Assembly: GCF_030028105.1 (NCBI RefSeq)
Contig: NC_092380.1
Coordinates: forward strand, 114,027,191 to 114,091,190
Direction of reading: 5' to 3'
DNA length: 64,000 nucleotides
From: Mobula birostris
Lineage: Eukaryota
Shown here: positions 5,514 through 53,900 of the stretch, one piece after another
Numbering within the stretch: the first letter of the stretch is position 1
How the letters are laid out: each line of letters begins with the position of its first letter
Program-made: the position numbers and the translations under genes
The notes under the pieces: model-generated
What the model was told of the DNA's origin: nothing
Seen by the model: only the letters and a program-made list of their open reading frames with translations
Databases searched by the model: none

Positions 5514-7329
5514 GCTAGTACCTAAGATGGAGCCGATTAAATTTACAACCCTCTGCAGCTTCTTTCGGTCCTGTGCAGTAGCCCTCCCCACCAAACCAGG
5601 CAGTGATGCCGCCTGTCAGAATGCTCCCCACAGTACCGTGGAGTGTATTTGTTGATATGCCAAATCTCTTCAAACTCCTAATGAAGAATAGCCGCTATCT
5701 TGCCTTCTTTATAACTGCACCAATATGTTGGGACCAGGTTAGATCCTCAGAGATCTTGACACCCAGGAACTTGAAACTGCTCACTCTCTCCACTGCTGAT
5801 CTCTCTATGAGGATTAGTATGTGTCCATTAATCTTACCCTTCCTGAAGTCCACAATCAGCTCTTTCATCTTACTGACATTGAGTGCCAGGTTGTTGCTGT
5901 GGCACCATTCCACTAGTTGGCATATCTCACTCCTGTACGCCCTCTCGTCGCCATCTGAGATTCTATCAACAATGGTTGTATGGTCAGCAAATTTATAGAT
6001 TGTATTTGAGCTATGCCTAGCCACACAGTCATGTATATATAGAGAGTAGATGTGTGGGATAAGCGCACACCCCTGAGGTGCACCAGTGTTGATCAATGTT
6101 TCGAGACAAGACACTTCATCAGGACTGGAAAGGAGGGGAGAAAAGCCAGAATAAGGTGGGGGAGGTGAGGAAGTACAAGCTGGGAGGTGATGGGTGACAC
6201 CAGGTGAGGGTGAAGGTGAGTGGGGAAGGTAATTGCTGGAAAAGATAACTTTATTTATTTCATTTATTCAGTGATACAGCATGGAATAAACCCTTCCACA
6301 ATTTCAAGCCACACCGCCCCAGCAACCCTAATTAACCCTGACATAACCTTGTGACAATTTACCTCTTTGGTGTGTGTTTGGACTCTGGGAGGAAACCATG
6401 GGGAGAGGACGGAAGAAGAATGAATCGGATGGAGAGGAGAGTGGACCGCGGGAGGAGGGGAACCAGAGGGAGGTGGTGGGCAGGTGAGGAGAAGAGAAGG
6501 GGTGAGGGGGGAACCAGAAAAGGGAGGGAGGGGGAACAGAGGGGAGTGATTACCAGAAGATGGAGAAATCAGTATTTACGCTGTCAGTTTGGAGGCTACC
6601 AAGATGGAATATGAGGTGTAAATGGTAACAAATGCATACTTTGATTACAAATTTACTTTGCATTTATCAACAACTCGACAACCAGCACTGACTCACTGCA
6701 CCAGCCATGTAAATGTCTACCTGAGGGCTGTGAATTCCACCGTAAATGTTTTAACTCCTGAGTCACCCTGGTCCAGTTCACTGGTTCATTGGCAAGACCA
6801 GAGGGACTGCGTTGCCTCAGCTGTCTGGTGCTGGCCCCACCCATCAGTGCTGCCCCCCAGTGTTCACTCGGAAGAAGTCCAGCTGGATTGCGTTTGTCTG
6901 CAGTGTGATAATGAACTGCTGTGTGCTCGTTCTTGCAGAAACGTGGCTCCAGGACAACATCCATGCACCATCAATCTACAGGCCGTGACACTCAGGGAGT
7001 CAGACGATATAATTTTTTTGTAACTATATGTTTTTTCTGCTATCGTAATTACGTGAGCGGTGTGTGACTTGGGTCTGTGTTTTACTGCTTGGCCCCAGAG
7101 GAACACTGTTGCATTTGCCCGCATTCATGTGTATGGTTGAATGACAATTAAACTTGAATTAGACACACCCATCAAAAAAAACATTTCCATCAGCTTGGAT
7201 GAATTCCTTGGCCCCTTTGCATGCTGTGTTACTCAATGATTCCAGTACAAGTCAGGAATGTAATGGAATACTCTCAAATTCACTGAGCTTCAACTTCATA
7301 CATCTCAACATCTCTGAAGATTAATCCTG

Positions 7330-13623: not shown

Positions 13624-14068
13624 ACGCGCGCACGGCGGTTGACTACTGCACAGAATCGAAAGTTACAAAGATTTGTGGAAGTAGTCATCTCCATCTTGGG
13701 TACTAGCCTCTGTAGTATCCAGGACATCTTCAAGGAGCGGTGTCTCAGGAAGGCGTTGTCCGTCATTAAGGGCCCCCATCACCCAGAACATGCTCTCTTC
13801 TCATTGATACCGTCAGGTAGGAGGTACAGAAGCCTGAAGGCACACACTCAGTGATTCAGGAACAGCTTCATCACCTCTGCCATCCCATGTCGAAATGGAC
13901 ATCGAACCTGTGAACACTACCTCACTTTTAAAAAATTATTTCTGTTTTTGCACTATTTTAAAATTAACTATTTTATATGGTGACATACCATGAATTGCAT
14001 TGTACAGCTGCTGCTAAGTTAACAGATTTCACCAAATCTGCCGGTGATATTAGACATGATTCTGAATC
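12790..14068 (+). mobile_element. Decayed Rex/Babar-like LINE containing a (GT)n microsatellite at about 13549-13620
   Basis: IYKFADDTNIVGRISGGDE and GPHHPEHALFSLIPSGRRYRSL; 3'UTR ends ...GATTCTGAATC. Confidence 0.8.
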
Positions 14069-14109
14069 AGCCTGGTGGTGTGGGTCCTGATGGCAGGAGC
14101 AAAGAGAGA

Positions 14110-17100
14110 GTGTGACCGGGGTGCTGAGAGACCCCGGTGATGGGTGCTGAGAGTCCCTGGTGAGGAGTGATGGGTGGGTGAGAGACCCCGGTGATGGGTG
14201 CTGAGAGTCCCTGGTGATGGGTGCTGAGAGACCCCGGTGATGGGTGCTGAGAGACCCCGGTGATGGGTGCTGAGAGACCCCGGTGATGGGTGCTGAGAGT
14301 CCCTGGTGAGGAGTGATGGGTGGGTGAGAGACCCCGGTGATGGGTGCTGAGAGTCCCTGGTGAGGAGTGATGGGTGGGTGAGAGACCCCGGTGATGGGTG
14401 CTGAGAGTCCCTGGTGAGGAGTGATGGGTGGGTGAGAGACCCCGGTGATGGGTGCTGAGAGTCCCTGGTGAGGAGTGATGGGTGGGTGAGAGACCCCGGT
14501 GATGGGTGCTGAGAGTCCCTGGTGAGGAGTGATGGGTGGGTGAGAGACCCCGGTGATGGGTGCTGAGAGTCCCTGGTGAGGAGTGATGGGTGGGTGAGAG
14601 ACCCCGGTGATGGGTGCTGAGAGTCCCTGGTGATGGGTGCTGAGAGACCCCGGTGATGGGTGATGGGTGGTGAGAGGCCCTGGTGAGGAGTGATGGGTGC
14701 TGACAGTCCCTGGTGATGGGTGCTGAGAGACCCCGGTGATGGGTGATGGGTGCTGAGAGACCCTGGTGATGGGTGGTGGGTGGTGAGAGTCCCTGGTGAT
14801 GGGTGCTGAGAGACCCTGGTGATGGGTGATGGGTGGTGAGAGGCCCTGGAGATGGGTGGGTGAGTCCCTGGTGAGGGATGGGTGAGAGTCCCTGGTGATG
14901 GGTGATGGGTGGGTGACAGTCCCTGGTGATGGGTGCTGTGAGTCCCTGGTAACGGGTGCTGAGAGTCCCCGGTGAGGGGTGCTGACAGTCCCTGGTGACC
15001 GGGGTGCTGAGAGTCCCCGGTGAGGGGTGCTGACAGTCCCTGGTGACCAGGGTGGTGACAGTCCCTGGTGATGGGTGCTGAGAGTCCCTGGTGATGGGTG
15101 CTGAGAGACCCCGGTGATGGGTGATGGGTGGTGAGAGTCCCCGGTGATGGGTGATGGGTGGGTGACAGTCCCCGGTGAGGGGTGCTGACAGTCCCTGGTG
15201 ACCGGGGTGGTGAGAGTCCCTGGTGATGGGTGCTGGGTGGGTGACAGTCCCTGGTGATGGGTGCTGTGAGTCCCTGGTGACAGGTGCTGAGAGTCCCCGG
15301 TGAGGGGTGCTGACAGTCCGGGGTGACCGGGGTGGTGAGAGTCCCCGGTGAGGGGGTGCTGACAGTCCTTGGTGACCGGGGTGATGAGAGTCCCCGGTGA
15401 GGGGTGCTGACAGTCCCTGGTGACCGGGGTGGTGAGAGTCCCCGGTGAGGGGTGCTGACAGTCCCTGGTGACCGGGGTGGTGAGAGTCCCCGGTGAGGGG
15501 TGGTGAGAGTCCCTGGTGACCGGGGTGGTGAGAGTCCCCGGTGAGGGGTGCTGACAGTCCCTGGTGACCGGGGTGGTGAGAGTCCCCGGTGAGGGGTGCT
15601 GACAGTCCCTGGTGACCGGGGTGGTGAGAGTCCCTGGTGATGGGTGCTGGGTGGGTGACAGTCCCTGGTGATGGGTGCTGTGAGTCCCTGGTGACAGGTG
15701 CTGAGAGTCCCCGGTGAGGGGTGCTGACAGTCCCTGGTGACCGGGGTGGTGAGAGTCCCCGGTGAGGGGGTGCTGACAGTCCCTGGTGACTGGGGTGGTG
15801 AGAGTCCCCGGTGAGGGGGTGCTGACAGTCCTTGGTGACCGGGGTGATGAGAGTCCCCGGTGAGGGGTGCTGACAGTCCCTGGTGACCGGGGTGGTGAGA
15901 GTCCCCGGTGAGGGGTGCTGACAGTCCCTGGTGACCGGGGTGGTGAGAGTCCCCGGTGAGGGGTGGTGAGAGTCCCTGGTGACCGGGGTGGTGAGAGTCC
16001 CTGGTGAGGGGTGCTGACAGTCCCTGGTGACCGGGGTGGTGAGAGTCCCCGGTGAGGGGTGCTGACAGTCCCTGGTGACTGGGGTGGTGAGAGTCCCTGG
16101 TGACCGGAGTGGTGAAAGTCCCTGGTGAGGGGTGGTGACAGTCCCTGGTGACCGGGGTGGTGAGAGTCCCTGGTGATGGGTGATGGGGTGGTGAGGGTCC
16201 CTGGTGAGGGGTGCTGACAGTCCCTGGTGACTGGGGTGGTGAGAGTCCCCGGTGAGGGGTGGTGAGAGTCCCTGGTGACCGGGGTGGTGAGAGTCCCTGG
16301 TGAGGGGTGCTGACAGTCCCTGGTGACCGGGGTGGTGAGAGTCCCCGGTGAGGGGTGCTGACAGTCCCTGGTGACTGGGGTGGTGAGAGTCCCTGGTGAC
16401 CGGAGTGGTGAAAGTCCCTGGTGAGGGGTGGTGACAGTCCCTGGTGACCGGGGTGGTGAGAGTCCCTGGTGATGGGTGATGGGGTGGTGAGGGTCCCTGG
16501 TGAGGGGTGCTGACAGTCCCTGGTGACTGGGGTGGTGAGAGTCCCCGGTGAGGGGTGCTGACAGTCCCTGGTGACTGGGGTGGTGAGAGTCCCTGGTGAC
16601 CGGAGTGGTGAAAGTCCCTGGTGAGGGGTGGTGACAGTCCCTGGTGACCGGGGTGGTGAGAGTCCCTGGTGATGGGTGATGGGGTGGTGAGGGTCCCTGG
16701 TGAGGGGTGCTGACAGTCCCTGGTGACTGGGGTGGTGAGAGTCCCCGGTGAGGGGTGCTGACAGTCCCTGGTGACTGGGGTGGTGAGAGTCCCTGGTGAC
16801 CGGAGTGGTGAAAGTCCCTGGTGAGGGGTGGTGACAGTCCCTGGTGACCGGGGTGGTGAGAGTCCCTGGTGATGGGTGATGGGGTGGTGAGGGTCCCTGG
16901 TGAGGGGTGCTGACAGTCCCTGGTGACTGGGGTGGTGAGAGTCCCCGGTGAGGGGTGCTGACAGTCCCTGGTGACTGGGGTGGTGAGAGTCCCTGGTGAC
17001 CGGAGTGGTGAAAGTCCCTGGTGAGGGGTGGTGACAGTCCCTGGTGACCGGGGTGGTGAGAGTCCCTGGTGATGGGTGATGGGGTGGTGAGGGTCCCTGG

Positions 17101-17692
17101 TGAGGGGTGCTGACAGTCCCTGGTGACTGGGGTGGTGAGAGTCCCCGGTGAGGGGTGCTGACAGTCCCTGGTGACTGGGGTGGTGAGAGTCCCTGGTGAC
17201 CGGAGTGGTGAAAGTCCCTGGTGAGGGGTGGTGACAGTCCCTGGTGACCGGGGTGGTGAGAGTCCCTGGTGATGGGTGATGGGGTGGTGAGGGTCCCTGG
17301 TGAGGGGTGCTGACAGTCCCTGGTGACTGGGGTGGTGAGAGTCCCCGGTGAGGGGTGCTGACAGTCCCTGGTGACTGGGGTGGTGAGAGTCCCTGGTGAC
17401 CGGAGTGGTGAAAGTCCCTGGTGAGGGGTGGTGACAGTCCCTGGTGACCGGGGTGGTGAGAGTCCCTGGTGATGGGTGATGGGGTGGTGAGGGTCCCTGG
17501 TGAGGGGTGCTGACAGTCCCTGGTGACTGGGGTGGTGAGAGTCCCCGGTGAGGGGTGCTGACAGTCCCTGGTGACTGGGGTGGTGAGAGTCCCTGGTGAT
17601 GGGTGATGGGGTGGTGAGAGTCCCTGGTGATGGGTGATGGGGTGGTGAGAGTCCCTGGTGACCGGGGTGGTGAGAGTCCCCGGTGAGGGGGT
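14110..17692. repeat. G-rich minisatellite with 22-25 bp units (GAGAGTCCCTGGTGA[T/CC]GGGGTG[C/G]T); 54-bp and 200-bp higher-order repeats; embedded in a minus-strand LINE relic (about 14070-17950)
   Basis: GATGGGTGAT recurs at 16471, 16671, 16871, 17071, 17271 and 17471; both flanks translate as LINE ORF2 C-terminus. Confidence 0.92.
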
Positions 17693-18429
17693 GCTGCTTT
17701 CCTGCAACAACACTCTGTGTAGATCTGCTAGTTGTGGGGAAGGTTTTACCTGTGGTGGACTGGGCCACATCCACTGCATTTCGTAGGATTTTCTGTTCAA
17801 GGGTATTGGTGTTTCCATTCCAGGCTGTGATACAACCAGTCAATATACTCTCCTCCACACATCTATAGAAGTTTGTTAAAGTTTGAGATGTCACGCTGAA
17901 TCTTGACAAATTGTGAAGGCAGCAGAGGCACTGCCATGATTTCTTCATCGCCTTATGCTGAATGTCTGTCTTCTGGAATATAGTTTATTATTTGTTAGTT
18001 TATTTGTGGTAATATTACTTTACGTATTGGGTGTGAGTTATATGACCTGTGTTGTACATCTTGGTCCAGATGAACTTTGTTTCGTTTGGCAGTATACACG
18101 ATAACAAACTTGAACTAGAGCTGATTGGATCCACTGGTTGTGCTGAAAAGCATGGCGATAGAGCCAGTAGTTCACAACACCGGAGATCTGCACTCAATCC
18201 AGATGCGGCTGCTGTCTGTGGGTAGTTTGCAGGCTGCCCTCGTGACTACCTGGGATTTCCCCTGTGCACCCGTTTCCTCACACATCCCAAATATGTACAT
18301 GTTGGTTGGTTAATTGACCGCTGTAAACTGAGTGTAATCTGGGGGAATTTGCTGAAAATTTAGGATTAAGGTAGGATTTGGGTAATTGGATACTAATAAT
18401 TGGCAAAGGGCCTGTTTCCATTCACTAAT

Positions 18430-23662: not shown

Positions 23663-23794
23663 GATGAAATTGCTGCCATTGAGCGAGCACCCACCCGCTA
23701 CCGTGATTCACAGACCTAAACCAAGGTTTGGAACGAGAAGTAGAGATAGCTGGCTGCTCAAAACCTGACAGCTTCTAAACGGCCAACCCTTTAT

Positions 23795-24900
23795 TTGCAG
23801 ACAGGGATAGAGAATTGGTTAGCAGACAGGAAGCAAAGAGTGGGAATAAACGGGACCTTTTCAGAATGGCAGGCGGTGACTAGTGGGGTACCGCAAGGCT
23901 CAGTGCTGGGACCCCAGTTGTTTACAATATATATTAATGACTTAGACGAGGGAATTAAATGCAGCATCTCCAAGTTTGCGGATGACACGAAGCTGGGCAA
24001 CAGTGTTAGCTGTGAGGAGGATGCTAAGAGGATGCAGGGTGACTTGGATAGGTTGGGTGAGTGGGCAAATTCATGGCAGATGCAATTTAATGTGGATAAA
24101 TGTGAAGTGATCCACTTTGGTGGCAAGAACAGGAAAACAGATTATTATCTGAATGGTGGCCGATTAGGACAAGGGGAGGTGCAACGAGACCTGGGTGTCA
24201 TTATACACCAGTCATTGAAAGTGGGCATGCAGGTACAGCAGGCGGTGAAAAAGGCAAATGGTATGCTGGCATTTATAGCGAGAGGATTCAAGTACAGGAG
24301 CAGGGAGGTACTACTGCAGTTGTACAAGGCCTTGGTGAGACCGCACCTGGAGTATTGTGTGCAGTTTTGGTCCCCTAATCTGAGGAAAGACATTCTTGCC
24401 ATAGAGGGAGTACAGAGAAGGTTCACCAGATTGATTCCTGGGATGGCAGGACTTTTATATGATGAAAGACTGGATCGACTAGGCTTATACTTGCTGGAAT
24501 TTAGAAGATTGAGGGGGGATCTCATTGAAACATATAAAATTCTAAAGGGATTAGACAGGCTAGATGCAGGAAGATTGTTCCCGATGTTGGGGAAGTCCAG
24601 AATGAGGGGTCACGGTTTAAGGATAAAGGGGAAGCCTTTTAGGACCGAGATGAGGAAAAACTTCTTCACACAGAGAGTGGTGAATCTGTGGAATTCTCTG
24701 CCACAGTAAACAGCTGAGGCCAGTTCATTGGCTATATTTAAGAGGGAGTTAGATATGGCCCTTGTGGCTAAAGGGATCAGGGGGTATGGGAGAGAAGGCA
24801 GGTACGGGGTTCTGAGTTGGATGATCAGCCATGATCATACTGAATGGTGGTGCAGGCTCAAAGGGCCAAATGGCCTTCTCCTGCACCTATTTTCTATGTC
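23795..24900 (+). mobile_element. Young 5'-truncated CR1 LINE (304-aa open ORF2 segment)
   Basis: GVPQGSVLGP, KFADDTKL, LVRPHLEYCVQFW, NFFTQRVVNLWNSLP; CR1 3'UTR. Confidence 0.9.
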
Positions 24901-26866
24901 TCAGACAGGGGCTCGGGTGTGCCCAAATTCAGACAATCAAATCTGCCTCACCTTTTGACCGTGGCTGATTTTAAAGATTAGCTTTACTTATCACATGTAC
25001 ATTAAAAAACCCATTTTGTCACCAATCAGAAACAGTCTGAGGCTGTGCTGGGGGCAGCCCGCAAGTGTGATCATGCTTCCGGCGCCAACCGAGCAGGTCT
25101 ACAGCTCACTAACCCTAACCTTGGAATGTGGAAGGACACCAAGCACCCGGAGGAAATCCTACATGGACATGGGGAGAATGAACAAACTCCGTACCGACAG
25201 CGGTGGGAACTGAACCGTGGTCAATGGTTCTGTAACAGGGCTGTGCCAACTGCTAGGCTACCATGCCACCTCTAGAGGGGCAATCTTCACGGTGATCTCA
25301 GGAAGTGACGGCACACACGCTGGCAGGGGGGGGGCAGTAACTCCCCAAACAAGCACCCCCCCCCACTGCTCTGCTCAGCTTTTTCCCCTTTATACTTTAT
25401 TGTCGCCAAACGATTGATACTAGAATGTACAATCATCACAACAATATTTGATTCTGCGCTTCACACTCCCTGGAGTACAAATCAACAGTAACTATTAAAA
25501 ATTTAAATTATAAATCATAAAAAGAAAATAGAAAAGGGGAAGTAAGGTAGTGCATAAAAACCAAGAGGCAGGTCCGGATATTTGGAGGGTACGGCCCAGA
25601 TCCGGGTCAGGATCCGTTCAGCAGTCTAATCACAGTTGGAAAGAAGCTGTTCCCAAATCTGGCCATACGAGTCTTCAAGCTCCTGAGCCTTTTCCCGGAG
25701 GGAAGAGGGACGAAAACTGTGTTGACTGGGTGGGTCGTGTCCTTGATTATCCTGGCAGCAGGGTCAGTTTCTCTCTCACAGAAGCTGTCAGGAGACCTCA
25801 TTGTTTCCCTCCCCACACCTACGACAGGATCAACCATAAAAGTCAAACTACTCTGAAAAAAAATCCCAGATTATTGCTCAAACTGTTTTTTTATTTAACT
25901 TAACGCAGCAAACAGGAGCGAGTGTTAGTTTGGTGCCTGTGACCTGAGAGTGGGTGATGGTCGGTTTTGAGGTTCATTGCCTCCGAACTCTGCTTTGTGT
26001 AATGATCAATGGCCCCACAACCTCTCCCGGTTGGGGAACACGTCCCTCCATCACACCTCAGCGCCTGACCTGTGCTGCACATTGCACAGAGCAAGATGCG
26101 TGTGATAAAGATCAGATCACTGGTTCTGGTGATGTTTGCTCCAGGATAGATGTTAGTATAGCTTACACCTCCCCTTCTTTACGAAGCAGAGGATCCAGGA
26201 ACTCCAGTGGAAGTCCCAACTGAAATCAGGGAGGTTAATCCATTGCCTCTTCACCTGACATCACCGACAGCAGACAGCATGCTGCAATGCTTGCTCCCCG
26301 GTGGGAGTCCGACCAGGAAACTTTCGCAGGACCACAGAAACCCAAACTGGACACTGAAACCGGAACCGATGCAATAAGTATTGAGACAACATTGACAAAC
26401 AAAAACACACCACACCCCGAGAGACGAGTTAACCAAGGCCACTGTCGACCCTGAAAACAGAATGCACCTCGCACTTTATGTCAACCCGTCAAACTCCAGG
26501 CCACGTCACTCAGGGACATTATTTTGTTACTGGATGTATGTGCTATTGTACCATGTTTCGGTATACGCTGTGCTATGTGCTACTGGTAATGTGTTTTCCA
26601 TCCTGGCCCTGGGAGAATGCTGTTTTGTTTGGCTGTATTCATGCACTGTTGAATGATAATTAAACTTGAATTTGTTTGGCTCCAGAGAGATTATCTTTTG
26701 TTTAGCTGTATCCACATGAATGACAATAAACTTGCACTTGAAAACCAGCAACTCACAACCAAGAGGTTCAACATTTCAAAGCAAAGCAAAACTCTGTCAC
26801 TCTAACATTCTGGCGGCAGGGTGAAGTTCAGAGAGTTCTAAATACTCTGGGAGAATCATGCTGGGA

Positions 26867-27085
26867 TTAGTTGTGTCTGAAGAGTTTAATCCCCATCCAA
26901 TTCCAGAGGTGGAAGAACACATAGACGGGAATGGTGATGGGGAGTAACAGGCTGTAGAAGCAGACACTGGCCGCACTGGTACAACCTTGCGGAAACCCCT
27001 CGTCAAATGCTGCAGAATACAACAACCCCGCAAGAGACATCAGGGGAACGAGTACGGTCAGTGTGGACAGGTGCACGGGCATCAT
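26867..27085 (-). CDS. PIGY: GPI-GlcNAc transferase subunit Y (downstream cistron of the PYURF/PIGY mRNA); 72 aa, or 71 aa from ATG 27082
   Basis: MMPVHLSTLTVLVPLMSLAGLLYSAAFDEGFPQGCTSAASVCFYSLLLPITIPVYVFFHLWNWMGIKLFRHN; matches the recalled human PIGY (...FPQGCTS...LLLPITIPVYVFFHLWTWMGIKLFRHN); two hydrophobic segments; intronless. Confidence 0.96.
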   Translation of the reverse strand: MMPVHLSTLTVLVPLMSLAGLLYSAAFDEGFPQGCTSAASVCFYSLLLPITIPVYVFFHLWNWMGIKLFRHN

Positions 27086-27149
27086 CCTGCAGGGTGTCGG
27101 GGAAATGATCACGCGGACCACAGTCTCCCACAGGTGTCCTCTCCACTCC

Positions 27150-27300
27150 TCACTGCTGGGAACTCTCTTCAGCCTTGCTGCCATCTTCACTTTTCTGAAT
27201 TAATGTGGCCTCCTGTGGGATCATGTTGGGAATGCCGTCAGTGACCGGATAGGCTATCCCGAGCTCATCGTTGATCAGCTGATTGGTGGACTCCTCATAC
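27150..27300 (-). CDS. PYURF: PIGY upstream reading frame (PREY; Trm112-like mitochondrial protein), coding part of exon 2
   Basis: Acceptor ...TCTGCAG|G at 27301; (R)YEESTNQLINDELGIAYPVTDGIPNMIPQEATLI...; TGA at 27150-27152; phase matches exon 1. Confidence 0.95.
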
Positions 27301-28250
27301 CTGCAGATGTGACAGACAGGGATTTGAAGAGGTAAGTGTAGATTCATAATGGACAGAAATGCTCTTTTTTTAACAAACATACAAATCTTTATTCAGTAAC
27401 AAAAGGCATACAAAGGTTAGTGATTACAATACTGTTAATGATTACAAATTAAGATAGTTATTACTATCTTCTATGCACCCAATTCCCTGGGGGGGGGCCT
27501 GCTCCTGGAAATCCCCCACTGAACCCACCTTGGTCGCATGCTCCCTCTCTAAGGACACCCTGGCATGAATGTAGCCCCAGAAAAGGGACAGGCAGTTAGC
27601 TCAGGCACAGCCCTTGACAGCTCACTGCCTGGACATCTTGGCCAGGCCAGGAGCAAAAATTCAACTTTGAATGCCTAAAAACTTAAACTTATGAAGGAGC
27701 AAGTTAAAGAACAAAAAAGTTATAAAAGAGCATTCAGGTATCGATGGGAGGGTCACATCCCAAAACCACAACCGTTTATTCATCTCCACAGATGCTGCCC
27801 AGCCTGCTGAATTTCTCCGGCATGTTGTGTGTGTTGCTCTGGATTTCCAGCATCTGCAGAATCTCTTGTGCTAATGTACAAATTGTCCCAAAAGATAACG
27901 TGCCAATGAACAGTTCCAGAAGATTAAGATGCTCAGGATCAAAGGTGACTTGGTTCAGTGGATTCAGAATTTTTGCCCACAGAAGACAGAGTGGGGTTGA
28001 AGCTCGTTATCCTCCCTGGAGGTCTGAGGCCAGTGGGGTTCCACAGGGCACCTCTGTCATTTATGATGTATATCAGTGACTTGGATACAAATGTGGAGGA
28101 TGGGTTGGTAAGTTTGAAGACAACACAAAGAATGGCAGAGTTTTTGGTGAAAAGGCTACAACAGGGTACAGAGCAGCTACAGACGAAACCTTCACTGCTT
28201 CAGTCAACCACAGATGTTACGTCCCAGCTACCCACTAGATACACAGGCGA

Positions 28251-28620
28251 GGGCAGTACAACATACGCAAGCCTGGGCAGTACAACATACGCAAGCCTGG
28301 GCAGTACGACATACGCAAGCCAGGGCAGTACGACATACGCAAGCCAGGGCAGTACGACATACGCAAGCCAGGGCAGTACGACATACGCAAGCCAGGGCAG
28401 AACGACATACGCAAGCCAGGGCAGTACAACATACGCAAGCCAGGGCAGTACAACATACGCAAGCCAGGGCAGAACGACATACGCAAGCCAGGGCAGTACG
28501 ACATACGCAAGCCAGGGCAGTACGACATACGCAAGCCAGGGCAGAACGACATACGCAAGCCAGGGCAGAACGACATACGCAAGCCTGGGCAGTACAACAT
28601 ACGCAAGCCAGGGCAGTACG
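28251..28620. repeat. 24-bp minisatellite (GGGCAGTACGACATACGCAAGCCA), about 15 copies, in the PYURF intron
   Basis: 8-aa periodic translation GSTTYASQ. Confidence 0.92.
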
Positions 28621-29289
28621 ATATGGAGATCAAGCTGTTCCCCGTGCAGTGGGCTCCCCCTCTCCTCGCAGCTGATGAACCCAAAGGAACGGCAGAGACC
28701 GATACAGTTTGGCACCAGCAGTGTTGCAGGAGTTGCCAGTCAGTATTGAACTCAATGTAGGACTGCCTTAGGAACCCCAGCTCTGGATTTTTCTTTGGGA
28801 TTTACTCCCGAAGCCTTCCCCTCGAGTGGGTATAGCCAAAGTGCAGCAGAGGTTTGAGATCAGCGTTTTCTCCTAGATGAGCTGCCAATCATGTCTGACG
28901 GGTCCCACCTGCCCAGAGTGACTGGTTTTAAGGAGCCATCTCCCGTCAGTAGAAATGGTTCCACTGAGCTTAGTAGCTAAGCCACGAGCGAAGGCCAGGA
29001 GTTGGCCTAGTTGTCAGAGGCTATTTGGGACTCATGCCATTGGGAGTATTTAATCAGCAGTGGGAGCTTGTCCCCATTACACCCCCTGACCCAGTGAATA
29101 CCTCCAACATCCTCCATCAGGTCCATGGTGTCGGGCTGAAAGGAGGTGTGGAAATGGATGTTGAGCAGTGACACTCACAGCCAACCAGCACAACGTCCTT
29201 CTCCATCATTGCATTCCTTTCACACAAATCTGACCAAGCAGAGGTCTCCAAGCACAAGATGCCGAAATCCAGAGCCCCACACACACACA

Positions 29290-30145
29290 CATTGCAGGAG
29301 TAGCTCGGCAGACCAGGCAGCATCAATGGAAATGGCGTTTCAGGCCCAGACCCTTCTTCCGGACTAGATAGGGTGAGATGCCAGAATGAGAAGACTAGGG
29401 GTGGGGCGGATAAGGAGGGCAAGCAAGAAGATGATAGGTGAGCATCTTCCCCAGGGTGGGTGGGAAAGGTAAAGGGCTGGAGAGGACCCAGGGAGAGGTG
29501 TAGGTAGGTGAGAAGAGTAAAAAGGACACTGTGGAATTGAAGAAGGGGCAGAGGAAAATTACCAGAAGAGGAGATCAATGTTCATGCCGTCAGGTCAGAG
29601 GATAACTAGATGGAATACGAGGCGTTGTTTCTCCAACCTGAGAGTAGCCTCATTATAGCAGAAGAGGAGGACGTGGGCTGACACATTGGAACAGGGATGG
29701 GGATAGGAATTGAAGCGGTTATCCACTGGAAAATTTCGCTTTTGGTGGATGGAGCGGAGGTGCTCGACAACCTGATAACATGAACATCGATTTCTTCTTC
29801 TAGTGATTTTCTGCTCCCCTCTTCTTCTGTTCTGCACTGTGGCCTCCCACCTCTTCTCCTCACCTACCTATCACCTCCCTTTTCCATTTTCCCACATTCC
29901 ACTCTCCTTTCAGATTCTTCTTTACCTTTTCCACCTATCACCCCAGCTTCTTACTTCATCCCCCTCCCCTCTCAACTGGCTTCACCTATCACCTGGCAGC
30001 TAGTCCTCTTTCTCCTCTCTCCACCTTCTCATTCCGGCTTCTTCCTCCTTCCTATCCAGTCCTGAAGAAGGGTCTCGGCCCGAAACGTCGACTGATTAAT
30101 TAATTTCCATTGCCGCTGCCTGATCTGCCGAGTTGCTCCAGAATC
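29290..30145. mobile_element. Penelope-derived repeat fragments in both orientations, in the PYURF intron
   Basis: GIY-YIG-tail-like segment (EKQRLVFHL, minus); pyrimidine tract plus CTGAAGAAGGGTCTCGGCCCGAAACGTC terminal motif. Confidence 0.6.
30057..30094 (+). ncRNA. Minimal type I hammerhead ribozyme motif (Penelope-type)
   Basis: CAGTC-CTGAAGA-A-GGGT(CTCG)GCCC-GAAA-CG-TC-GACTG: stem I CAGTC/GACTG, core CUGANGA, 4-bp stem II, GAAA, palindromic ACGU, UC cleavage site. Confidence 0.65.
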
Positions 30146-30294
30146 TCCTCGCTGGCCACCCCCGGGTTCACTGAATCGCTCCCCTCCTGTCTTGTGCAGA
30201 CACGGGTCCTCGATCCCCCACCTTCACCCTCGACCCCATGCACCGGGCACGGCACGGCACGACCTTGCTCACGGAACCCCGCGACCCAACCGAC

Positions 30295-30452
30295 CTCAGG
30301 CGCTTCCGGGACAGCGGGCAGACGAGGTAGGCGAGCAGTTCGGGGTCGATGCGGGGTTGCGGGTTCGCCCCTTGGCCCTTCCCTGGGCCGGTGCCCAGCC
30401 CGCGGACTCCCCGCACAATCCCGAGCCCGCTCCGAGCCGCCGCCCGCAGCAT
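30295..30452 (-). CDS. PYURF: PYURF exon 1 (mitochondrial-presequence-like N-terminus plus start of the Trm112-like domain); spliced CDS is 309 nt, 102 aa
   Basis: GCCGCCATG at 30452; MLRAAARSGLGIVRGVRGL...IDPELLAYLVCPLSRKRL(R); donor AG|GTCGGT at 30294. Confidence 0.95.
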
Positions 30453-30600
30453 GGCGGCACTCACCGCTGCACTTCCGGTTCCGCATCCGGGTAACGCCCT
30501 CCCGGAGCCGTCACGGCACCGCCCACTTAAAGGGACAAGTACCCCCCGCGGGCTAGGCCATTCAGCCCTTCCAGCCGCAGTTGGCCCTGCTCCATCCCCG
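30453..30600 (-). promoter_or_regulatory. CpG-island promoter/5'UTR of PYURF-PIGY
   Basis: CpG-rich from about 30150 to 30600; ETS/GABP site CCGGAAGT (minus, 30471-30478); GC-box-like CCGCCC. Confidence 0.65.
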
Positions 30601-40989: not shown

Positions 40990-41792
40990 CAGGGCTACGG
41001 TAGGAAACTTTGTCACATGGTGTGAGCAGAATTATCTGCAGCTTAATGTGAAAAAGACTAAGGAGCTGGTGGTAGACCTGAGGAGAGCTAAGGTAACGGT
41101 GACCCCTGTTTCCATCCAGGGGGTCAGTGTGGACATGGTGGAGGATTACAAATACCTGGGGATATGAATTGACAATAAACTGGACTGGTCAAAGAACACT
41201 GAGGCTGTCTACAAGAAGGGTCAGAGCCATCTCTATTTCCTGAGGAGACTGAGGTCCTTTAACATCTGCCGGGTGATGCTGAGGATGTTCTACGAGTCTG
41301 TGGTGGCCAGTGCTATCATGTTTGCTGTTGTGTGCTGGGGCAGCAGGCTGAGGGTAGCAGACACCAACAGAATCAGCAAACTCATTCGTAAGGCCAGTGA
41401 TGTTGTGGGGATGGAACTGGACTCTCTCACGGTGGTGTCTGAAAAGAGGATGCTGTCTAAGTTGCATGCCATCTTGGACAATGTCTCCCATCCACTACAT
41501 AATGTACTGGGTGGGCACAGGAGTACATTCAGCCAGAGACTCATTCCACCGAGATGCAGCACAGAGCGTCATAGGAAGTCATTCCTGCCTGTGGCCATCA
41601 AACTTTACAACTCCTCCCTTGGAGGGTCAGATACCCTGAGCCAATAGGCTGGTCCTGGACTTATTTCCTGGCATAATTTACACATTACTATTTAACTATT
41701 TATGGTTTTATTACTATTTATTATTTATGGTGCAACTGTGACGAAAACCGATTTCCCCTGGGATCAATAAAGTATGACTGTGACAATGACTA
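40990..41792 (+). mobile_element. Rex1/Babar-like LINE 3' fragment, near-identical to 3070-3875
   Basis: MLRMFYESVVASAIMFAVVCWG...; same AATAAAGTATGACT tail. Confidence 0.9.
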
Positions 41793-43199: not shown

Positions 43200-44242
43200 A
43201 AATATAATTATTGGTATAAAATTTACTTGTCTTCATCCATGCCTGTAATATGTATTGTATCAACAATTTTCTTTAAAATTCTGAGAAAGTGCTTGAATTT
43301 TTGACAGAACAAAACACATCTTTTACCTAAAGGAGAAATCACAAATGACCCATCAAAATATCGTCCTATTACTTGCTTACAAACGACATCTAAAATTGTA
43401 TCATCTTGCATCTTGCAACTAATCACCACCCACTCAGATAACCACAATATACTCACAGAAGAGCAGAAAGGATGCCACAAGGATATGAAACGATGTAAAC
43501 TGATAATAGATTCTGTAATTCTATATCAAGCCCAGCAGAAAAGCAGAGATCTTTCATGTTGTTATATTGGCAACCAAAAAGCATTTGACTCTGTCCCACG
43601 CTCACGGTTAATAGAAGCTCTTAATATATATAAACTACACCCAATACTTGTGAAATTCCTGCAACATCTCATGAAGTATCGGCGTACTGTAATCACCCGA
43701 TCTATTAACAACCAAACAGCAAGCACCATTATCAAAATAAACCGAGGCATTTTCTAGGACAACTCTCTATACCTTCTGTGGTTTTGCTTAGCTTTAAACC
43801 CACTCTCTAATTTACCAAATTGGATGTAAATAGGGTATCAAATCAGAGACAAACAAATAAATTTCTATTTGATACCCTATTTCATCCAATTCTATACACG
43901 GACGATTTGAAATTGTGTGTTCCTTCATCAGTGAAGCTATAGCAATTAATTCAAATAGTCCCGTCGAAGGGTCTCGGCCTGAAATGTTGACTGTATTTTT
44001 TTCTATAGATACTGCCTGGCCTGCTGAGTTCCTCTAGCATTTTGTGTATGTTAAACAAATAGTAGAACTATTTTCAAAAGATGTTCAACATGAACTTTGG
44101 AGTAGACAAATGCAGAAGATAAAGAGAGGAGCGATAGGGCTTACTGAATACAAGACGGAGCAGCCGGATACAATACAACCGATGGATGAATAGGAAATAT
44201 GTTAGAATCTGGGAGATCAACAAACAAAGAAAGGAGACTCTT
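43200..44242 (+). mobile_element. R4/Dong-like non-LTR retrotransposon RT fragment, decayed, with a short Penelope-type insert at about 43958-44052
   Basis: DPSKYRPITCL, ILTEEQKGC, QKAFDSVP, INRGIF*..LSxLWFCLALNPLS, LYTDDLKL, FGVDKC. Confidence 0.75.
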
Positions 44243-44430
44243 TCATGTCAAGGTGTTTGTATTTGTAATTAACTTTATCACTTTGTAGAGATTTGCTTTC
44301 ACTTTGACACGAAAGAGTCTTTTTCTGTTGATCAGTGTCAAAAAAGCCAAATTAAATCCACTGTGATTCAATGTTGTAAAATAATAAAACATGAAGACTT
44401 CCAAGGAGGGTAAATACTTTTTATAGGCAC

Positions 44431-44467
<37 letters not shown>

Positions 44468-44524
44468 GTATGTATGCATGTATGTATATATATAAATATA
44501 TGTACAGTAATCAAAGGGTCAAAG

Positions 44525-45100
44525 GGTCAGTGCCGTCTCTATTTCCTGAGGAGACTGAGGTCCTTTAACATCTGCCAGACAATGCTGAGGATGTTCTACG
44601 AGTCTGTGGTGGCCAGTGAGATCATGTTTGCTGTTGTGTGCTGGGGCAGCAGGCTGAGGGTAGCAGACACCAACAGAATCAACAAACTCATTCGTAAGGC
44701 CAGTGATGTTGTGGGGATGGAACTGGACTCTCTCACGGTGGTGTCTGAAAAGAGGATGCTGTCCAAGTTGCATGCCATCTTGGACAATGTCTCCCATCCA
44801 CTACATAATGTACTCGTTGGGCACAGGAGTACATTCAGCCAGAGACTCATTCCACCGAGATGCAGCACAGAGCGTCATAGGAAGTCATTCCTGCCTGTGG
44901 CCATCAAACTTTACAACTTCCCCCTTGGAGGGTCAGACACCCTGAGCCAATAGGCTGGTCCTGGATTTATTTCATAATTTACTGGCATAATTTACATATT
45001 ACTATTTAACTATTTATGGTTTTATTACTATTTATTATTTATGGTGCAACTGTAATGAAAACCAATTTCCCCCAGGATCAATAAAGTATGACTATGATTA
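44525..45100 (+). mobile_element. Rex1/Babar-like LINE 3' fragment (third near-identical copy)
   Basis: Same ORF end and tail as 2056-3875. Confidence 0.9.
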
Positions 45101-47430: not shown

Positions 47431-50425
47431 GAGAAGGAATGGGAATGGGATTGGGCAGCCAGTGCAGAGCACCCCGTAGCAGTTTCCCTCAATAATAAGT
47501 ACACTGCTCTGGATACTGTTGAGGGGGATGATCTACCAGGGGGAGCCACAGTGATCGGTTGTCTGACATTGAATCTGGTGCTGTGGCTCAGAAGAGCGGA
47601 GAGGTGAGGAGGACTGTAGTGTTGACAGGAGATTGCTTACTCAGAGGAACAGGAACAAGATTCTATGAATGCTATGGAGATACCCAGACGGTATGTAGCC
47701 TTCCTGGAGCCAGGATCAGGGATGTCTCGGATTGGATCCATGGTATTCTCAAGGGGGAGGATGAGCAGCCAGAAGTCTGGGCACATCTTGGCACCAGTGA
47801 CGAAAGTAGACAGGGTGAGGAGATCATGAAAAGACATTTTAAGGAGATACATAGAAAGCTGAGAAACAGGATCTCCAGGGTAGTAATCTCTGGATTGCTG
47901 CCTGTGCCGCGTGCCAGTGAGCGTAACAATAAGATGATTTGGCAGATGACTGTGCGGTTGAGGAACTGGTGCAGGGAGCAGGATTTCAGATTACTGATAT
48001 CATTGGGATCTCTTCTGGGGAAGGTACGATCTGTACGAAAGAGATGGGTTACACCTGAGCCCGAGGGGGATCAATATCCTTGCGGGCAGGTTGGGAGGGT
48101 TTAAACTAATTTGGCAGGGGGATGGGAACTGGAGTGATAGAGCTGAGGATGAGGTAGATGGTTTACAAACAGAGGCAGTGTGTAGTGATACTGTGGCAAG
48201 GAGAGGCTGATAATAGGGCAAAATAGCCGTCATTGTAAAATGTGGACAAAATCAGAAAGCGTGATTACGGGACTGAGGTGTTATATTTGAATGTGTGCAG
48301 TATACAGAATAAGGTAGATGAGTCGTACACAGTTGCAGATTGGCAGGTACGATGTTGTAGGCATCACTGAATCATGGCTGAAAGAAGATTATAGCTGGGA
48401 GCTCAATGTCCAAGGATACACATCGTATCGAAAGGACCGGCAGGTAGTCAGAGGGGGTGGTGTGGCTCTGTTGGTAAAAAATGAAATCAAATTATCAGAA
48501 AAATGTGACATAGGGTCAGAAGGTGTAGAATCATTGTGGGTAGAGCTAAGAAACTGCAAGGGTAAAAAGGCCCTGATAGGAGTTCCAGTATATACAGACC
48601 CCCAAACAATAGTAAAGAATATGTCTACAAATAGAAAATGCCTGTGAAAAGAGAGATGTTACAATAGTCATGGGGGATTTCAATATGTAGGTAGATTGGG
48701 AAAATCAGGTTGGTGCTGGATTCCAAGAGGGAGAATTTCTAAAAATCCTATGGCATAGCTTTTTAGTGCAGTTTGTGGTTGAGCCCACTGGGTGATCAGT
48801 TATTCTGGATTGATTGGGTGATGTACAATGAATCGGAATTGATTAGAGAGCTTAAGGTAAAGGAACCCTTAGGAATCAGTAATCATAATATGATAGAATT
48901 CACCCTGCAGTTTGAGAAGGAGAAGCTAAAGTCGGATGTATCAGTATTAAAGTGGAGTAAAGGGAATTAGAGGCATGAGAAGGAGCTGGCCAAAACTGAT
49001 TGGAAGAGAATAGTAGCTGGTATGACGGCAGAGCAGCAATGTCTGGAATTTCTGGGAGCAATTTGCAAGGCGCAGGATATATACATCCCAAAGAGGACGA
49101 AGTATTCTAAAGGCAGGATGAGACAACTGTGGCTGACAAGAGAAATCAAAGTCAACATAAGAGAAAAAGTACAATAGAGAAAAAAATTAGTGGGAAAAGA
49201 GAAAAAGTATAATAGAGAAAAAAATTAGTGGGAAATGAGAGGATTTTAGGAAGTTAGAAGTTAGAGGAAGTTTTTAAAAACCAATAGAAAGCAATTAAAA
49301 AGTTATAAAGAAAGAAGGATGGAATATGAAGGTAAGCTAGCCAATAATATTAAAGAGGATACCAAACATTTCTTTAGGCAAGAAATGATATTGGACCATT
49401 GGTAAATGATTCTGGAGAGGAAGGTATAAGGGTCAGAGAAATAGTGGATGAACTGAATAAGTATTTTTCATCAGTTTTCATTGTGAAAGACACTAACAAA
49501 TATGCCGGAAGTACATGAGTGCCAGGGTGCAGAAGTTTGTGAAGTGGCCATTACTAGTGAGAAGGTTCTTGGGAAACTGAACGGTCTGAAGGTAGGTAAG
49601 TCACCTGGACAAGATGGTCTACTGCCCAGGGTTCTGAAACAGGTGGCTTAAGAGATTGTGAAGGCATTAGTATTGATCTTTCAAAAATCAATTGATTAGG
49701 GCATGGTTCTAGGGGTCTGGAAAATTGCAGAGAGGCAGAAGAAAGGAAACTATAGGCCAGTTAGTCTGACCTCAGTGGTTGGGAAGATACCAGAGTTGAT
49801 TGTTAAAGATGTGGTTTCAGAGTACTTGGAGGACAAGCAAGAAATAAAAGCATAAACTATTTTCCAAATTGGGAGAAAATTTAAAAATCTGAGGTGCAAA
49901 TAGATCTGTGAGTCCTCGCACAGGATTTCCTAAAGTTTAACTTGCAGGTTGAATTGGTGGTAAGGAATGCAAATGCAATGTTAGCATTCATTTCGAGAAG
50001 ACCAGAATCTAAGAGCAAGGTTGTAATGTTGAAGTTTTATAAGGCTGCACTTGGCATGTTGTGAGCATTTTTGGGCCTTTATGTATTTAAGAAAAGATAT
50101 GCTGGCATTACAGAGGGTCCAGACGAAATTCACGAGAATGATTCTGGGAATGAAAAGGTTAAGGAAAGAAGAGTGTTTGGTGGCTCTGGGTCTGTACTTG
50201 TTGGAGTTTAAAAGTATGAGGGAGGATCTCATTGAAATCTATCAAATACTGAATATAGAGTGGACATGGAGAGGATGTTTCCTGTAGTGGGAGACTTGAG
50301 GACCAGAGGACACAGCCTCAAAACAGAGGGACATCCATTTGAAACAGAGGTGAAGAGGAATTACTTTACCCAGAGGATGGTGAATCTGTGGAATTCATTG
50401 CCATGGACAGCTGTGAAGGCCATCA
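47431..50425 (+). mobile_element. Decayed, internally deleted CR1 LINE (ORF1 esterase-like, APE endonuclease, RT); 3' end resumes at about 53910-54072
   Basis: VVLTGDCLLRG...LPGARIRDV; YDVVGITESWLKE; MGDFN; RT C-terminal motifs. Confidence 0.85.
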
Positions 50426-53400: not shown

Positions 53401-53900
53401 AAACCTGCCCGTGAGAGTATTGGTCCCCCCCCCCCCGGTTCAGATGCAACCCGTCACTTTTGAACAGGTCATACCTCCCCCAGAAGAGATCCCAATGATC
53501 CAAGAACCTGAAGCCCTGCCCCCTGCACTAGCTTCTCAGCCATGCATTTATTTGCCAGGTCATCCTGTTTCTACCCTCACTGGTGAGTGGCACAGGCAGC
53601 AATCCAGAAATTACTACCCTGGAGGTCTTGCTTCTCAGTTTTCTACCTAGTTCTCTAAATTCTCTTTTCAGGACCTTCTTGCTTTTCCTTCCTATGTCAT
53701 TGGTACCAACATGTACCAAGACAACTGGCTGCACCCCTTCCCTCTCCAAAATGCTGTGGACGTGATCAGAGACGTCCCTGACTCTGGTACCTGGGTGGTA
53801 ACATACCATTTCTCCTGACAGTCACCCAACTACCTGCCTCCTGCAACGTGGGGTGACTACTTCCCTGTAACTCTGATTGATTATCTCCTCACTCCCCTGT
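50430..53900 (-). mobile_element. Decayed CR1 LINE inserted in inverted orientation into the 3' end of the previous CR1
   Basis: ORF1 PGTRVRDV..HVGTNDIG; ORF2 KSPGPDELHP, KFADDTKV, NSFSQRVVNL. Confidence 0.85.

What the first reader, a model, noticed from the sequence alone, without database searches (positions are those of the whole stretch)
26867..30452. Intact bicistronic PYURF-PIGY gene in a probable cartilaginous fish
Seen: one two-exon unit encodes PYURF (102 aa, spliced) and, 64 nt after its stop and in the same exon, an intact 71-72-aa PIGY ORF with no separate CpG island. Established: human PYURF/PIGY is one of the few bicistronic vertebrate mRNAs, coupling a mitochondrial Trm112-like factor (complex I/CoQ) to an ER GPI-anchor enzyme subunit. 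Inference: the arrangement predates the split of cartilaginous and bony fish. PYURF has a GCCGCCATG start and exon 2 holds several internal ATGs, so simple leaky scanning to PIGY looks unfavourable; reinitiation or another mechanism may apply. Automatic annotation often misses one of the two ORFs.
Basis: partly seen in the sequence, partly recalled or inferred. Interest (0 to 1): 0.7.

Follow-up and report, generated by a model that had tools for sequence, protein, structure and literature searches.

The report
Ray PYURF-PIGY gene with bypass donor
This is a ray's ordinary copy of the known two-protein PYURF-PIGY gene, whose spliced RNA carries both reading frames; a splice site 12 bases before the first start codon likely makes a minor RNA that skips PYURF and would supply part of the second protein.

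Summary
A two-exon minus-strand gene encodes PYURF (102 aa) and, 64 nt after its stop, PIG-Y (71/72 aa). One probable-RNA contig with no mismatches joins exon 1 to exon 2 and runs through PIG-Y; three other organisms show the same join.

It is not new. The PYURF protein is identical to a RefSeq Mobula birostris protein, and a skate mRNA holding both ORFs is in a 2026 paper's dataset.

(1) A consensus splice donor lies 12 nt before the PYURF AUG. A skate RefSeq model uses the matching donor and skips PYURF; a teleost model does likewise. Its use in this ray is inferred: none of 7 runs laid showed it, but no laid piece covered that site. (2) Of four internal AUGs, two open 7- and 4-codon ORFs, one is the PYURF-frame Met, and one starts a 105-aa PIG-Y overlapping PYURF; it is ACG in three relatives.

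Best reading: a mostly bicistronic mRNA, with low PIG-Y output from leaky scanning plus a minor PYURF-skipping isoform.

The parts
30200..30599 (.). CpG island / promoter region of the single transcription unit
   Evidence: GC 0.71, CpG o/e 0.88-0.96
30471..30478 (-). ETS-type motif CCGGAAGT just upstream of the bypass donor (motif label recalled, not from a call)
   Evidence: sequence
30484..30486 (-). Weak-context upstream ATG (-3 C, +4 C): 65-codon out-of-frame ORF in the main splice form, 15-codon ORF in the bypass form; may lie upstream of the start site
30459..30465 (-). Candidate bypass 5' splice site GCG|GTGAGT, 12 nt before the PYURF AUG; use in this species inferred
   Evidence: Joint best consensus match (7/9) of all GT sites in 30200-30560 and the only one matching all of +3..+6; 51 of 5000 shuffled 60-nt stretches hold GGTRAGT; matching donor used in skate model XM_033038860.1
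30295..30452 (-). PYURF coding exon 1 (AUG in GCCGCCAUGC; basic, acid-free N-terminus like a mitochondrial presequence, inferred)
   Evidence: 6 R/K, 0 D/E in first 35 aa; contigs cover 30293-30404
27301..30294 (-). Intron (GT..AG), holding a 24-bp x 16 tandem array at 28239-28621
   Evidence: junction in contigs; array
27150..27300 (-). PYURF coding part of exon 2, stop TGA 27152-27150
27254..27298 (-). Two short ORFs out of the PYURF frame (ATG 27298, 7 codons; ATG 27268, 4 codons)
26867..27184 (-). N-extended PIG-Y ORF (105 aa) from strong-context ATG 27184 (A-3, G+4), overlapping the PYURF stop; lineage-specific
   Evidence: exact protein in NCBI/UniRef as P0122; ACG in runs X6, X21, X9, silent in the PYURF frame
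27086..27149 (-). 64-nt intercistronic spacer
26867..27085 (-). Canonical PIG-Y ORF (72/71 aa, two hydrophobic stretches)
   Evidence: Pfam PF15159; 107 homologues; alignment A1; hydropathy
25873..26866 (-). 3' UTR, likely ending just past AATAAA at 25895-25890
   Evidence: contigs end at 25976 (X1), 25922 (X21), 25873 (X6); signal

Best explanation
The locus is the ray orthologue of PYURF-PIGY: its main spliced RNA carries both reading frames, and PIG-Y is likely made at a low level by two routes, ribosomes that scan past the PYURF start and a minor isoform predicted to use the donor at 30465 and skip that start. Shown: both ORFs, the splice junction, one contig across both, and the donor sequence. 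Inferred: most ribosomes make PYURF (mitochondrial Trm112-like partner of methyltransferases). Those that leak past its AUG, or load on the bypass isoform, meet two very short ORFs, reinitiate, and start PIG-Y at 27184 (105 aa) or 27085/27082 (72/71 aa). Start-site position would set the choice of donor: a cap close to the donor leaves it unused, a cap further upstream allows it.
For: X1 record of 1435 nt covers 30404-30293 and 27302-25976 with 0 differences; same junction in X2, X4, X6, X21, X9. Skate pyurf model starts 8 nt and pigy model 57 nt upstream of a G|GTGAGT donor; the pigy model splices there onto exon 2 (counted by eye). Myxocyprinus XM_051690182.1 also joins a short upstream exon to exon 2; Bufo X2 uses another first exon. 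A Val-Ser pair, compatible with GTGAGY, stands before the PYURF Met in 5 of 7 extended chondrichthyan records, 4 of 6 species. PYURF and PIGY are isoforms X1 and X2 with consecutive accessions in four elasmobranchs. Spacer length and phase vary: 64 here, 33/48 in L002, 236 in L003, 98 human (coordinates), 78 skate (by eye), which fits scanning. Human PIGY footprint density is 22.9 against 262.7 for PYURF. Human PIGY mRNA at 6-10% gave no significant CD16 loss (PMC4599673). A toy model with assumed probabilities gives 2-16% PIG-Y from the bicistronic mRNA.
Against: The bypass junction was seen in 0 of 7 runs laid. Contigs drop rare forms, nothing was laid above 30404, and the loose-end table was cut, so this is not absence, but the isoform is unshown here. 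Human long reads are 234 of 236 bicistronic in one data set, so the bypass is not needed there. The donor is not evident in the bird, crocodile or cattle leaders I read, and position -1 is A in baboon and orangutan. Skate, teleost and toad evidence is predicted (XM_) models; I did not see the exon structures behind the X1/X2 labels. Val-Ser does not prove the codons. The runs are only guessed to be RNA, and a contig across two ORFs is not a single molecule. No translation data exist here for a cartilaginous fish.
Confidence: 0.6

Rival explanations
1. Purely bicistronic: the upstream donor is idle in this ray and all PIG-Y comes from leaky scanning (with reinitiation after the short ORFs) on the one mRNA, as appears to hold in human.
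For: Only the PYURF junction was seen in contigs; human 234 of 236 long reads bicistronic and PIGY about 9% of PYURF; PYURF AUG lacks +4 G; toy model suffices without an isoform.
Against: The donor matches consensus better than the used one (7/9 against 6/9), is about 1% by chance, and is used in the skate model; X1/X2 labels in Mobula RefSeq.
Confidence: 0.2
2. Reinitiation after the full PYURF ORF is the main source of PIG-Y.
For: A 64-nt AUG-free spacer ends in a tandem AUG with A at -3; bird spacers are as short as 4-13 nt (by eye).
Against: Reinitiation falls with first-ORF length, and TURBS-type coupling needs stop and start within about 20-30 nt (PMC10275272 passages); spacers range to 236 nt with five intervening ATGs in L003.
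Confidence: 0.1
3. The bypass isoform is the main source of PIG-Y, so the gene is functionally two monocistronic mRNAs from one promoter.
For: Skate, teleost and toad models; in the toy model a 9-28% isoform share equals the bicistronic output; mouse has split the pair onto chromosomes 6 and 9.
Against: All six runs with a junction show the PYURF form; human long reads.
Confidence: 0.08
4. A fused or recoded product (readthrough, frameshift or a second splice) joins PYURF to PIG-Y.
For: Two 155-aa cyprinid predictions fuse Trm112p and PIG-Y domains (P0116, P0118); PIG-Y is in PYURF's frame in L002 and skate (by eye).
Against: Phase is not conserved (+1 here, 0 in L002, +2 in L003 and human); no joint in 26867-27300 in 4 runs; no fused protein among 37 longer hits to PYURF exon 2 (a weak search).
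Confidence: 0.02

Closest known systems
Human PYURF-PIGY bicistronic transcript (NM_032906.5 / NM_001042616.3; PMC13303939 passages and Datasets EV1, EV6)
   Same: Two exons, intron at the same R|Y codon, PYURF first, intronless 71-aa PIGY in exon 2, several internal AUGs, one CpG-island promoter.
   Different: Spacer 64 nt against 98 nt, different phase; a stronger upstream donor 12 nt before the AUG (human has GCG|GTGAGG 28 nt before, not fixed in primates); an in-frame strong AUG giving a 105-aa PIG-Y that overlaps PYURF.
Amblyraja radiata pyurf / pigy RefSeq models XM_033038859.1 and XM_033038860.1 (seen in Dataset EV6, first 400 nt)
   Same: Same layout in a batoid; the pyurf model holds both ORFs; G|GTGAGT donor upstream of the AUG.
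   Different: The skate pigy model shows use of that donor; skate exon 2 has only the PYURF-frame Met before PIGY, and a 78-nt spacer.
STREMI-SLC35A4, MIURF-MIEF1, ASDURF-ASNSD1 bicistronic mRNAs (PMC13303939)
   Same: Conserved protein-coding upstream ORF plus an unrelated downstream ORF; STREMI-SLC35A4 also dates to jawed vertebrates.
   Different: Unrelated proteins; stress regulation was tested for SLC35A4, not here.
Mouse Pyurf (chr 6) and Pigyl (chr 9); Branchiostoma belcheri PYURF and PIGY
   Same: Same two protein families.
   Different: Separate genes: different chromosomes in mouse, 5.6 Mb apart on one scaffold in amphioxus.

Membership tests
PYURF/PreY (Trm112p, PF03966) | Trm112p domain above the Pfam cut-off, with LVCPLS and GIPNMIP motifs | tested here: met
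   P0151, identical to the spliced window ORF: 37.4 bits against cut-off 22; six solved bacterial structures match
PYURF/PreY (Trm112p, PF03966) | Mitochondrial import and binding to COQ3/COQ5/NDUFAF5 | not testable with these tools
   Only N-terminal composition checked; human function from PMC12489013 passages
PIG-Y (PF15159) | About 71 aa, two hydrophobic segments, conserved C-terminal WMGIKLFRHN | tested here: met
   42.1 bits against cut-off 25; 29 invariant columns in 25 sequences; hydropathy peaks
PIG-Y (PF15159) | Association with PIG-A in the GPI-GnT complex | not tested
   Known for human (PMC4599673 passage)
Bicistronic vertebrate mRNA (criteria of PMC13303939) | Two conserved, non-homologous protein ORFs in one transcription unit | tested here: met
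Bicistronic vertebrate mRNA (criteria of PMC13303939) | Both ORFs on the same molecule (long reads), as the main form | tested here: inconclusive
   Single spliced contigs span both ORFs in 4 of 4 runs, but these are contigs, not long reads, and in organism A they stop 48 nt or more short of the PYURF AUG
Bicistronic vertebrate mRNA (criteria of PMC13303939) | Both ORFs translated from that molecule (Ribo-seq) | not testable with these tools
   Human data only
TURBS-type termination-reinitiation | Stop and restart codons within about 20-30 nt | tested here: not met
   64 nt here, 236 nt in L003; criterion from PMC10275272
Alternative-donor isoform that skips the upstream ORF | Junction reads from the upstream donor to exon 2 | tested here: inconclusive
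   0 of 7 runs, but the site was not covered by any laid piece; seen in the skate RefSeq model

The most novel reading that the evidence does not exclude
PYURF-PIGY carries an ancient splice switch: a donor just before the PYURF start, kept in rays, skates, sharks and carp-like teleosts and tied to start-site choice, turns the two-protein mRNA into a PIGY-first mRNA and sets the GPI-anchor versus mitochondrial output ratio, while mammals rely on leaky scanning. In this ray a newly gained AUG makes PIG-Y length (105 versus 72 aa) a built-in readout of the translation route.
Probability: 0.35. Interest if true: 0.55.

Novelty: already known. Interest (0 to 1): 0.3.

Why it matters
The arrangement itself adds little: it is annotated in RefSeq for this genus and listed for a skate in a 2026 dataset. 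What could matter is how the second ORF of a textbook bicistronic mRNA gets made. If the upstream donor is a conserved, regulated bypass, the pair is only partly bicistronic in fishes, and this offers a route by which duplicates split the two functions (mouse, Myxocyprinus). The ray's overlapping AUG gives a cheap test: 105-aa PIG-Y can only come from ribosomes that start before the PYURF stop, whereas reinitiation after PYURF can only give 72/71 aa.

Tried and rejected
No RNA holder on record was listed; all runs are contigs, guessed RNA or of unknown kind. Of 22 runs I laid 7 (X1, X2, X4, X6, X7, X9, X21); X7 laid nothing on exon 1 and no piece covered 30405-30570, which is no evidence either way. 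The 105-aa extension as a conserved feature: rejected, ACG in 3 of 3 other organisms, only 38 codons open upstream of PIG-Y, and 86 of the 150 proteins then held are 71 aa. The 7-codon ORF at the start of exon 2 as a conserved element: rejected, it depends on TAT versus TAC and is absent in L002, L003 and skate. Retrocopies that might preserve an isoform: none, 1 match in G000. Metagenome scan: 7 loci; L002 and L003 hold vertebrate-type PYURF exon 2 plus PIGY but no PYURF start; L004-L008 are weak (47-52% over about 30 aa) with no PYURF hit nearby and were not used. A polyadenylation signal in the spacer: none. Contigs of two studies would start near 30458-30459 if exon 1 has no indels (loose ends 163 and 162 nt): at most a weak hint of a very short leader, not used. 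The original PIG-Y cloning paper (Murakami 2005, recalled) could not be opened, so what it says on mechanism or isoforms is unchecked. Neighbour scan: 148 of 739 stop-free stretches were scanned against Pfam, so synteny is not established. No structure or complex prediction was run.
Full report
Observation. The minus strand holds exon 1 (ATG 30452 to donor 30295) and exon 2 (from 27300). Spliced, they give a 102-aa ORF ending at TGA 27152-27150. Sixty-four nt later a tandem ATG (27085, 27082) opens a 72/71-aa ORF ending at 26867. The second ORF matches Pfam PIG-Y (E=1.6e-10). The first is identical to P0151, RefSeq 'protein preY isoform X1' of Mobula birostris, which matches Trm112p above cut-off. 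The PIG-Y is 70/71 identical to a Mobula RefSeq protein, 69/71 and 68/71 to stingray ones and 54/71 to mouse, so the source is a ray. The only CpG island is at 30200-30599, there is no poly(A) hexamer in the spacer, and the gene is single-copy in G000.

One RNA over both ORFs. Of 22 listed runs, none on record as RNA, I laid 7. In X1 one 1435-nt contig covers 30404-30293 and 27302-25976 with no differences. X2 and X4 show the same junction, as do X6, X21 and X9 from three other organisms and studies. Depth drops from about 1000 in exon 2 to tens or zero in the intron for X1, as expected for spliced RNA. Contigs end at 25976, 25922 and 25873, around AATAAA at 25895. Limits: these are contigs, not single molecules, and in organism A they stop 48 nt or more short of the PYURF AUG.

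What is already known. PMC13303939 (passages, section 13, supplement files 5 and 10 in part; figures not seen) names PYURF-PIGY among previously characterised bicistronic transcripts. Human long reads cover both ORFs in 234 of 236 cases, and mean footprint density is 22.9 for PIGY against 262.7 for PYURF. Its Dataset EV6 lists the skate mRNA XM_033038859.1 as a hit for both human proteins, so the origin before the cartilaginous/bony split is in print data. Amphioxus has the two genes 5.6 Mb apart, lamprey has PYURF rows but no PIGY row, and mouse has them on chromosomes 6 and 9. I read parts 1, 10-15 and 17 of 137 of that file plus searches; sequence cells are cut at 400 letters, and unread rows may hold more isoforms.

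The internal AUGs. Between the PYURF AUG and PIG-Y there are four: 27298 (7 codons), 27268 (4 codons), 27224 (PYURF-frame Met, 24 codons) and 27184. The last has A at -3 and G at +4, is in the PIG-Y frame with no stop, and gives a 105-aa protein overlapping the PYURF stop. That exact protein is in NCBI (P0122). It is lineage-specific: X6, X21 and X9 all read ACG, a silent GAT/GAC change in PYURF. X6 and X21 instead have an in-frame ATG at 27112, the N-terminus also seen in the 81-aa P0128. Both gains look like CpG decay (inference). A toy model with assumed probabilities gives 2-16% PIG-Y per loaded ribosome from the bicistronic mRNA (illustrative only), close to the human ratio. Little PIG-Y seems needed: patients with 6-10% PIGY mRNA showed no significant CD16 loss (PMC4599673 passages).

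The spacer. Its length and phase are not kept: 64 nt (+1) here, 33 or 48 nt (0) in L002, 236 nt (+2) in L003, 98 nt in human (coordinates), 78 nt in skate and 4-13 nt in three birds (counted by eye). This argues against readthrough, frameshifting or tight termination-reinitiation, which needs about 20-30 nt (PMC10275272 passages), and fits scanning.

The bypass donor. GCG|GTGAGT at 30465|30464 lies 12 nt before the PYURF AUG. It matches the donor consensus at 7 of 9 positions against 6 of 9 for the used donor, and is the only GT site in 30200-30560 matching all of +3 to +6. The 7-mer occurs 19 times in the window, no more than chance overall, but in 51 of 5000 shuffled 60-nt stretches of the island; I noticed it after seeing the skate model, so it is a prediction met rather than a blind scan. 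The skate pigy model XM_033038860.1 splices from a G|GTGAGT donor 30 nt before the skate AUG onto exon 2 and starts 49 nt upstream of the pyurf model. Myxocyprinus XM_051690182.1 joins a short upstream exon to exon 2 in a duplicate whose PYURF frame appears broken. Bufo X2 uses another first exon, and Chelonia X2 a donor just after the AUG that shortens the ORF in frame. Five of 7 N-extended chondrichthyan PYURF records (4 of 6 species) have Val-Ser 4 or 8 codons before the Met, as the window's own leader does in frame; Stegostoma and Callorhinchus do not. PYURF and PIGY carry X1 and X2 labels with consecutive accessions in four elasmobranchs; I did not see their exon structures.

Against the donor. 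No run showed the bypass junction (0 of 7), although no laid piece covered the site and contigs drop rare forms. Human is 99% bicistronic in one long-read set. The donor is not evident in bird, crocodile or cattle leaders, and -1 is A in baboon and orangutan. All cross-species evidence of use is predicted models.

Mechanism. Shown: ORFs, main junction, contig continuity, donor sequence, variant AUGs. Inferred: PYURF is the main product; PIG-Y comes at low level from leaky scanning with reinitiation after the short ORFs, plus a minor PYURF-skipping isoform chosen by start-site position (0.6). Rivals: idle donor (0.2), reinitiation after full PYURF (0.1), isoform as main source (0.08), fusion (0.02).

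Novelty. The gene and its age are known. I found no paper discussing the upstream donor in nine searches of the held library (listings only, except papers named above), but the PIG-Y cloning paper was unavailable and most subscription papers are not held. The scan's index had no note with PYURF or PIGY. Verdict: real, ordinary orthologue with one testable mechanistic lead; interest 0.3.

Noticed in passing
window 60559-61014 (-): Stretch matching Pfam DTHCT (E=2e-11), the C-terminal region of topoisomerase II (family link recalled); likely the last exon of a TOP2 gene about 30 kb upstream. The human locus is flanked by HERC genes (PMC6002735), so the neighbourhood may differ.
   Followed up: partly
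window 28239-28621: Intronic tandem array, 24 bp x 16 copies, 94% matches; gives spurious long ORFs and a CpG-rich patch.
   Followed up: partly
window 2023-3726, 5698-6267, 23750-24706, 43305-43754, 59004-59687: Reverse-transcriptase (RVT_1) fragments of LINE-type elements; related fragments at 41168-41644, 44414-44950, 48318-48644 and 53531-53821.
   Followed up: no
window 14001-18000: GC-rich, strongly skewed low-complexity stretch (GC 0.58-0.67, GC skew about 0.4), probably a satellite; not examined.
   Followed up: no
P0116, P0118 (cyprinid proteins): 155-aa predictions that fuse the Trm112p and PIG-Y domains; probably gene-model artefacts, but a real splice fusion in cyprinids was not excluded.
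   Followed up: partly
P0156, P0159, P0192, P0194, P0195: Shark PYURF models are extended to an upstream Met (MRKR...) that corresponds to the window's weak ATG at 30486 among ETS-type motifs; likely leader sequence annotated as coding.
   Followed up: partly
L003:1211-1446: Teleost-like locus with a 236-nt spacer whose five ATGs all have T at -3 while the PIGY ATG has A, as leaky scanning would favour.
   Followed up: partly
L004-L007: Four metagenome loci with a distant PIG-Y/Eri1-like C-terminus (47% over 30 aa) and no PYURF hit in the locus; probably a microbial eukaryote.
   Followed up: no
human PIGY c.-540G>A (PMC4599673): This promoter variant cuts the shared mRNA to 6-10%, so it should lower PYURF too; the paper's main text does not mention PreY or bicistronic.
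   Followed up: no
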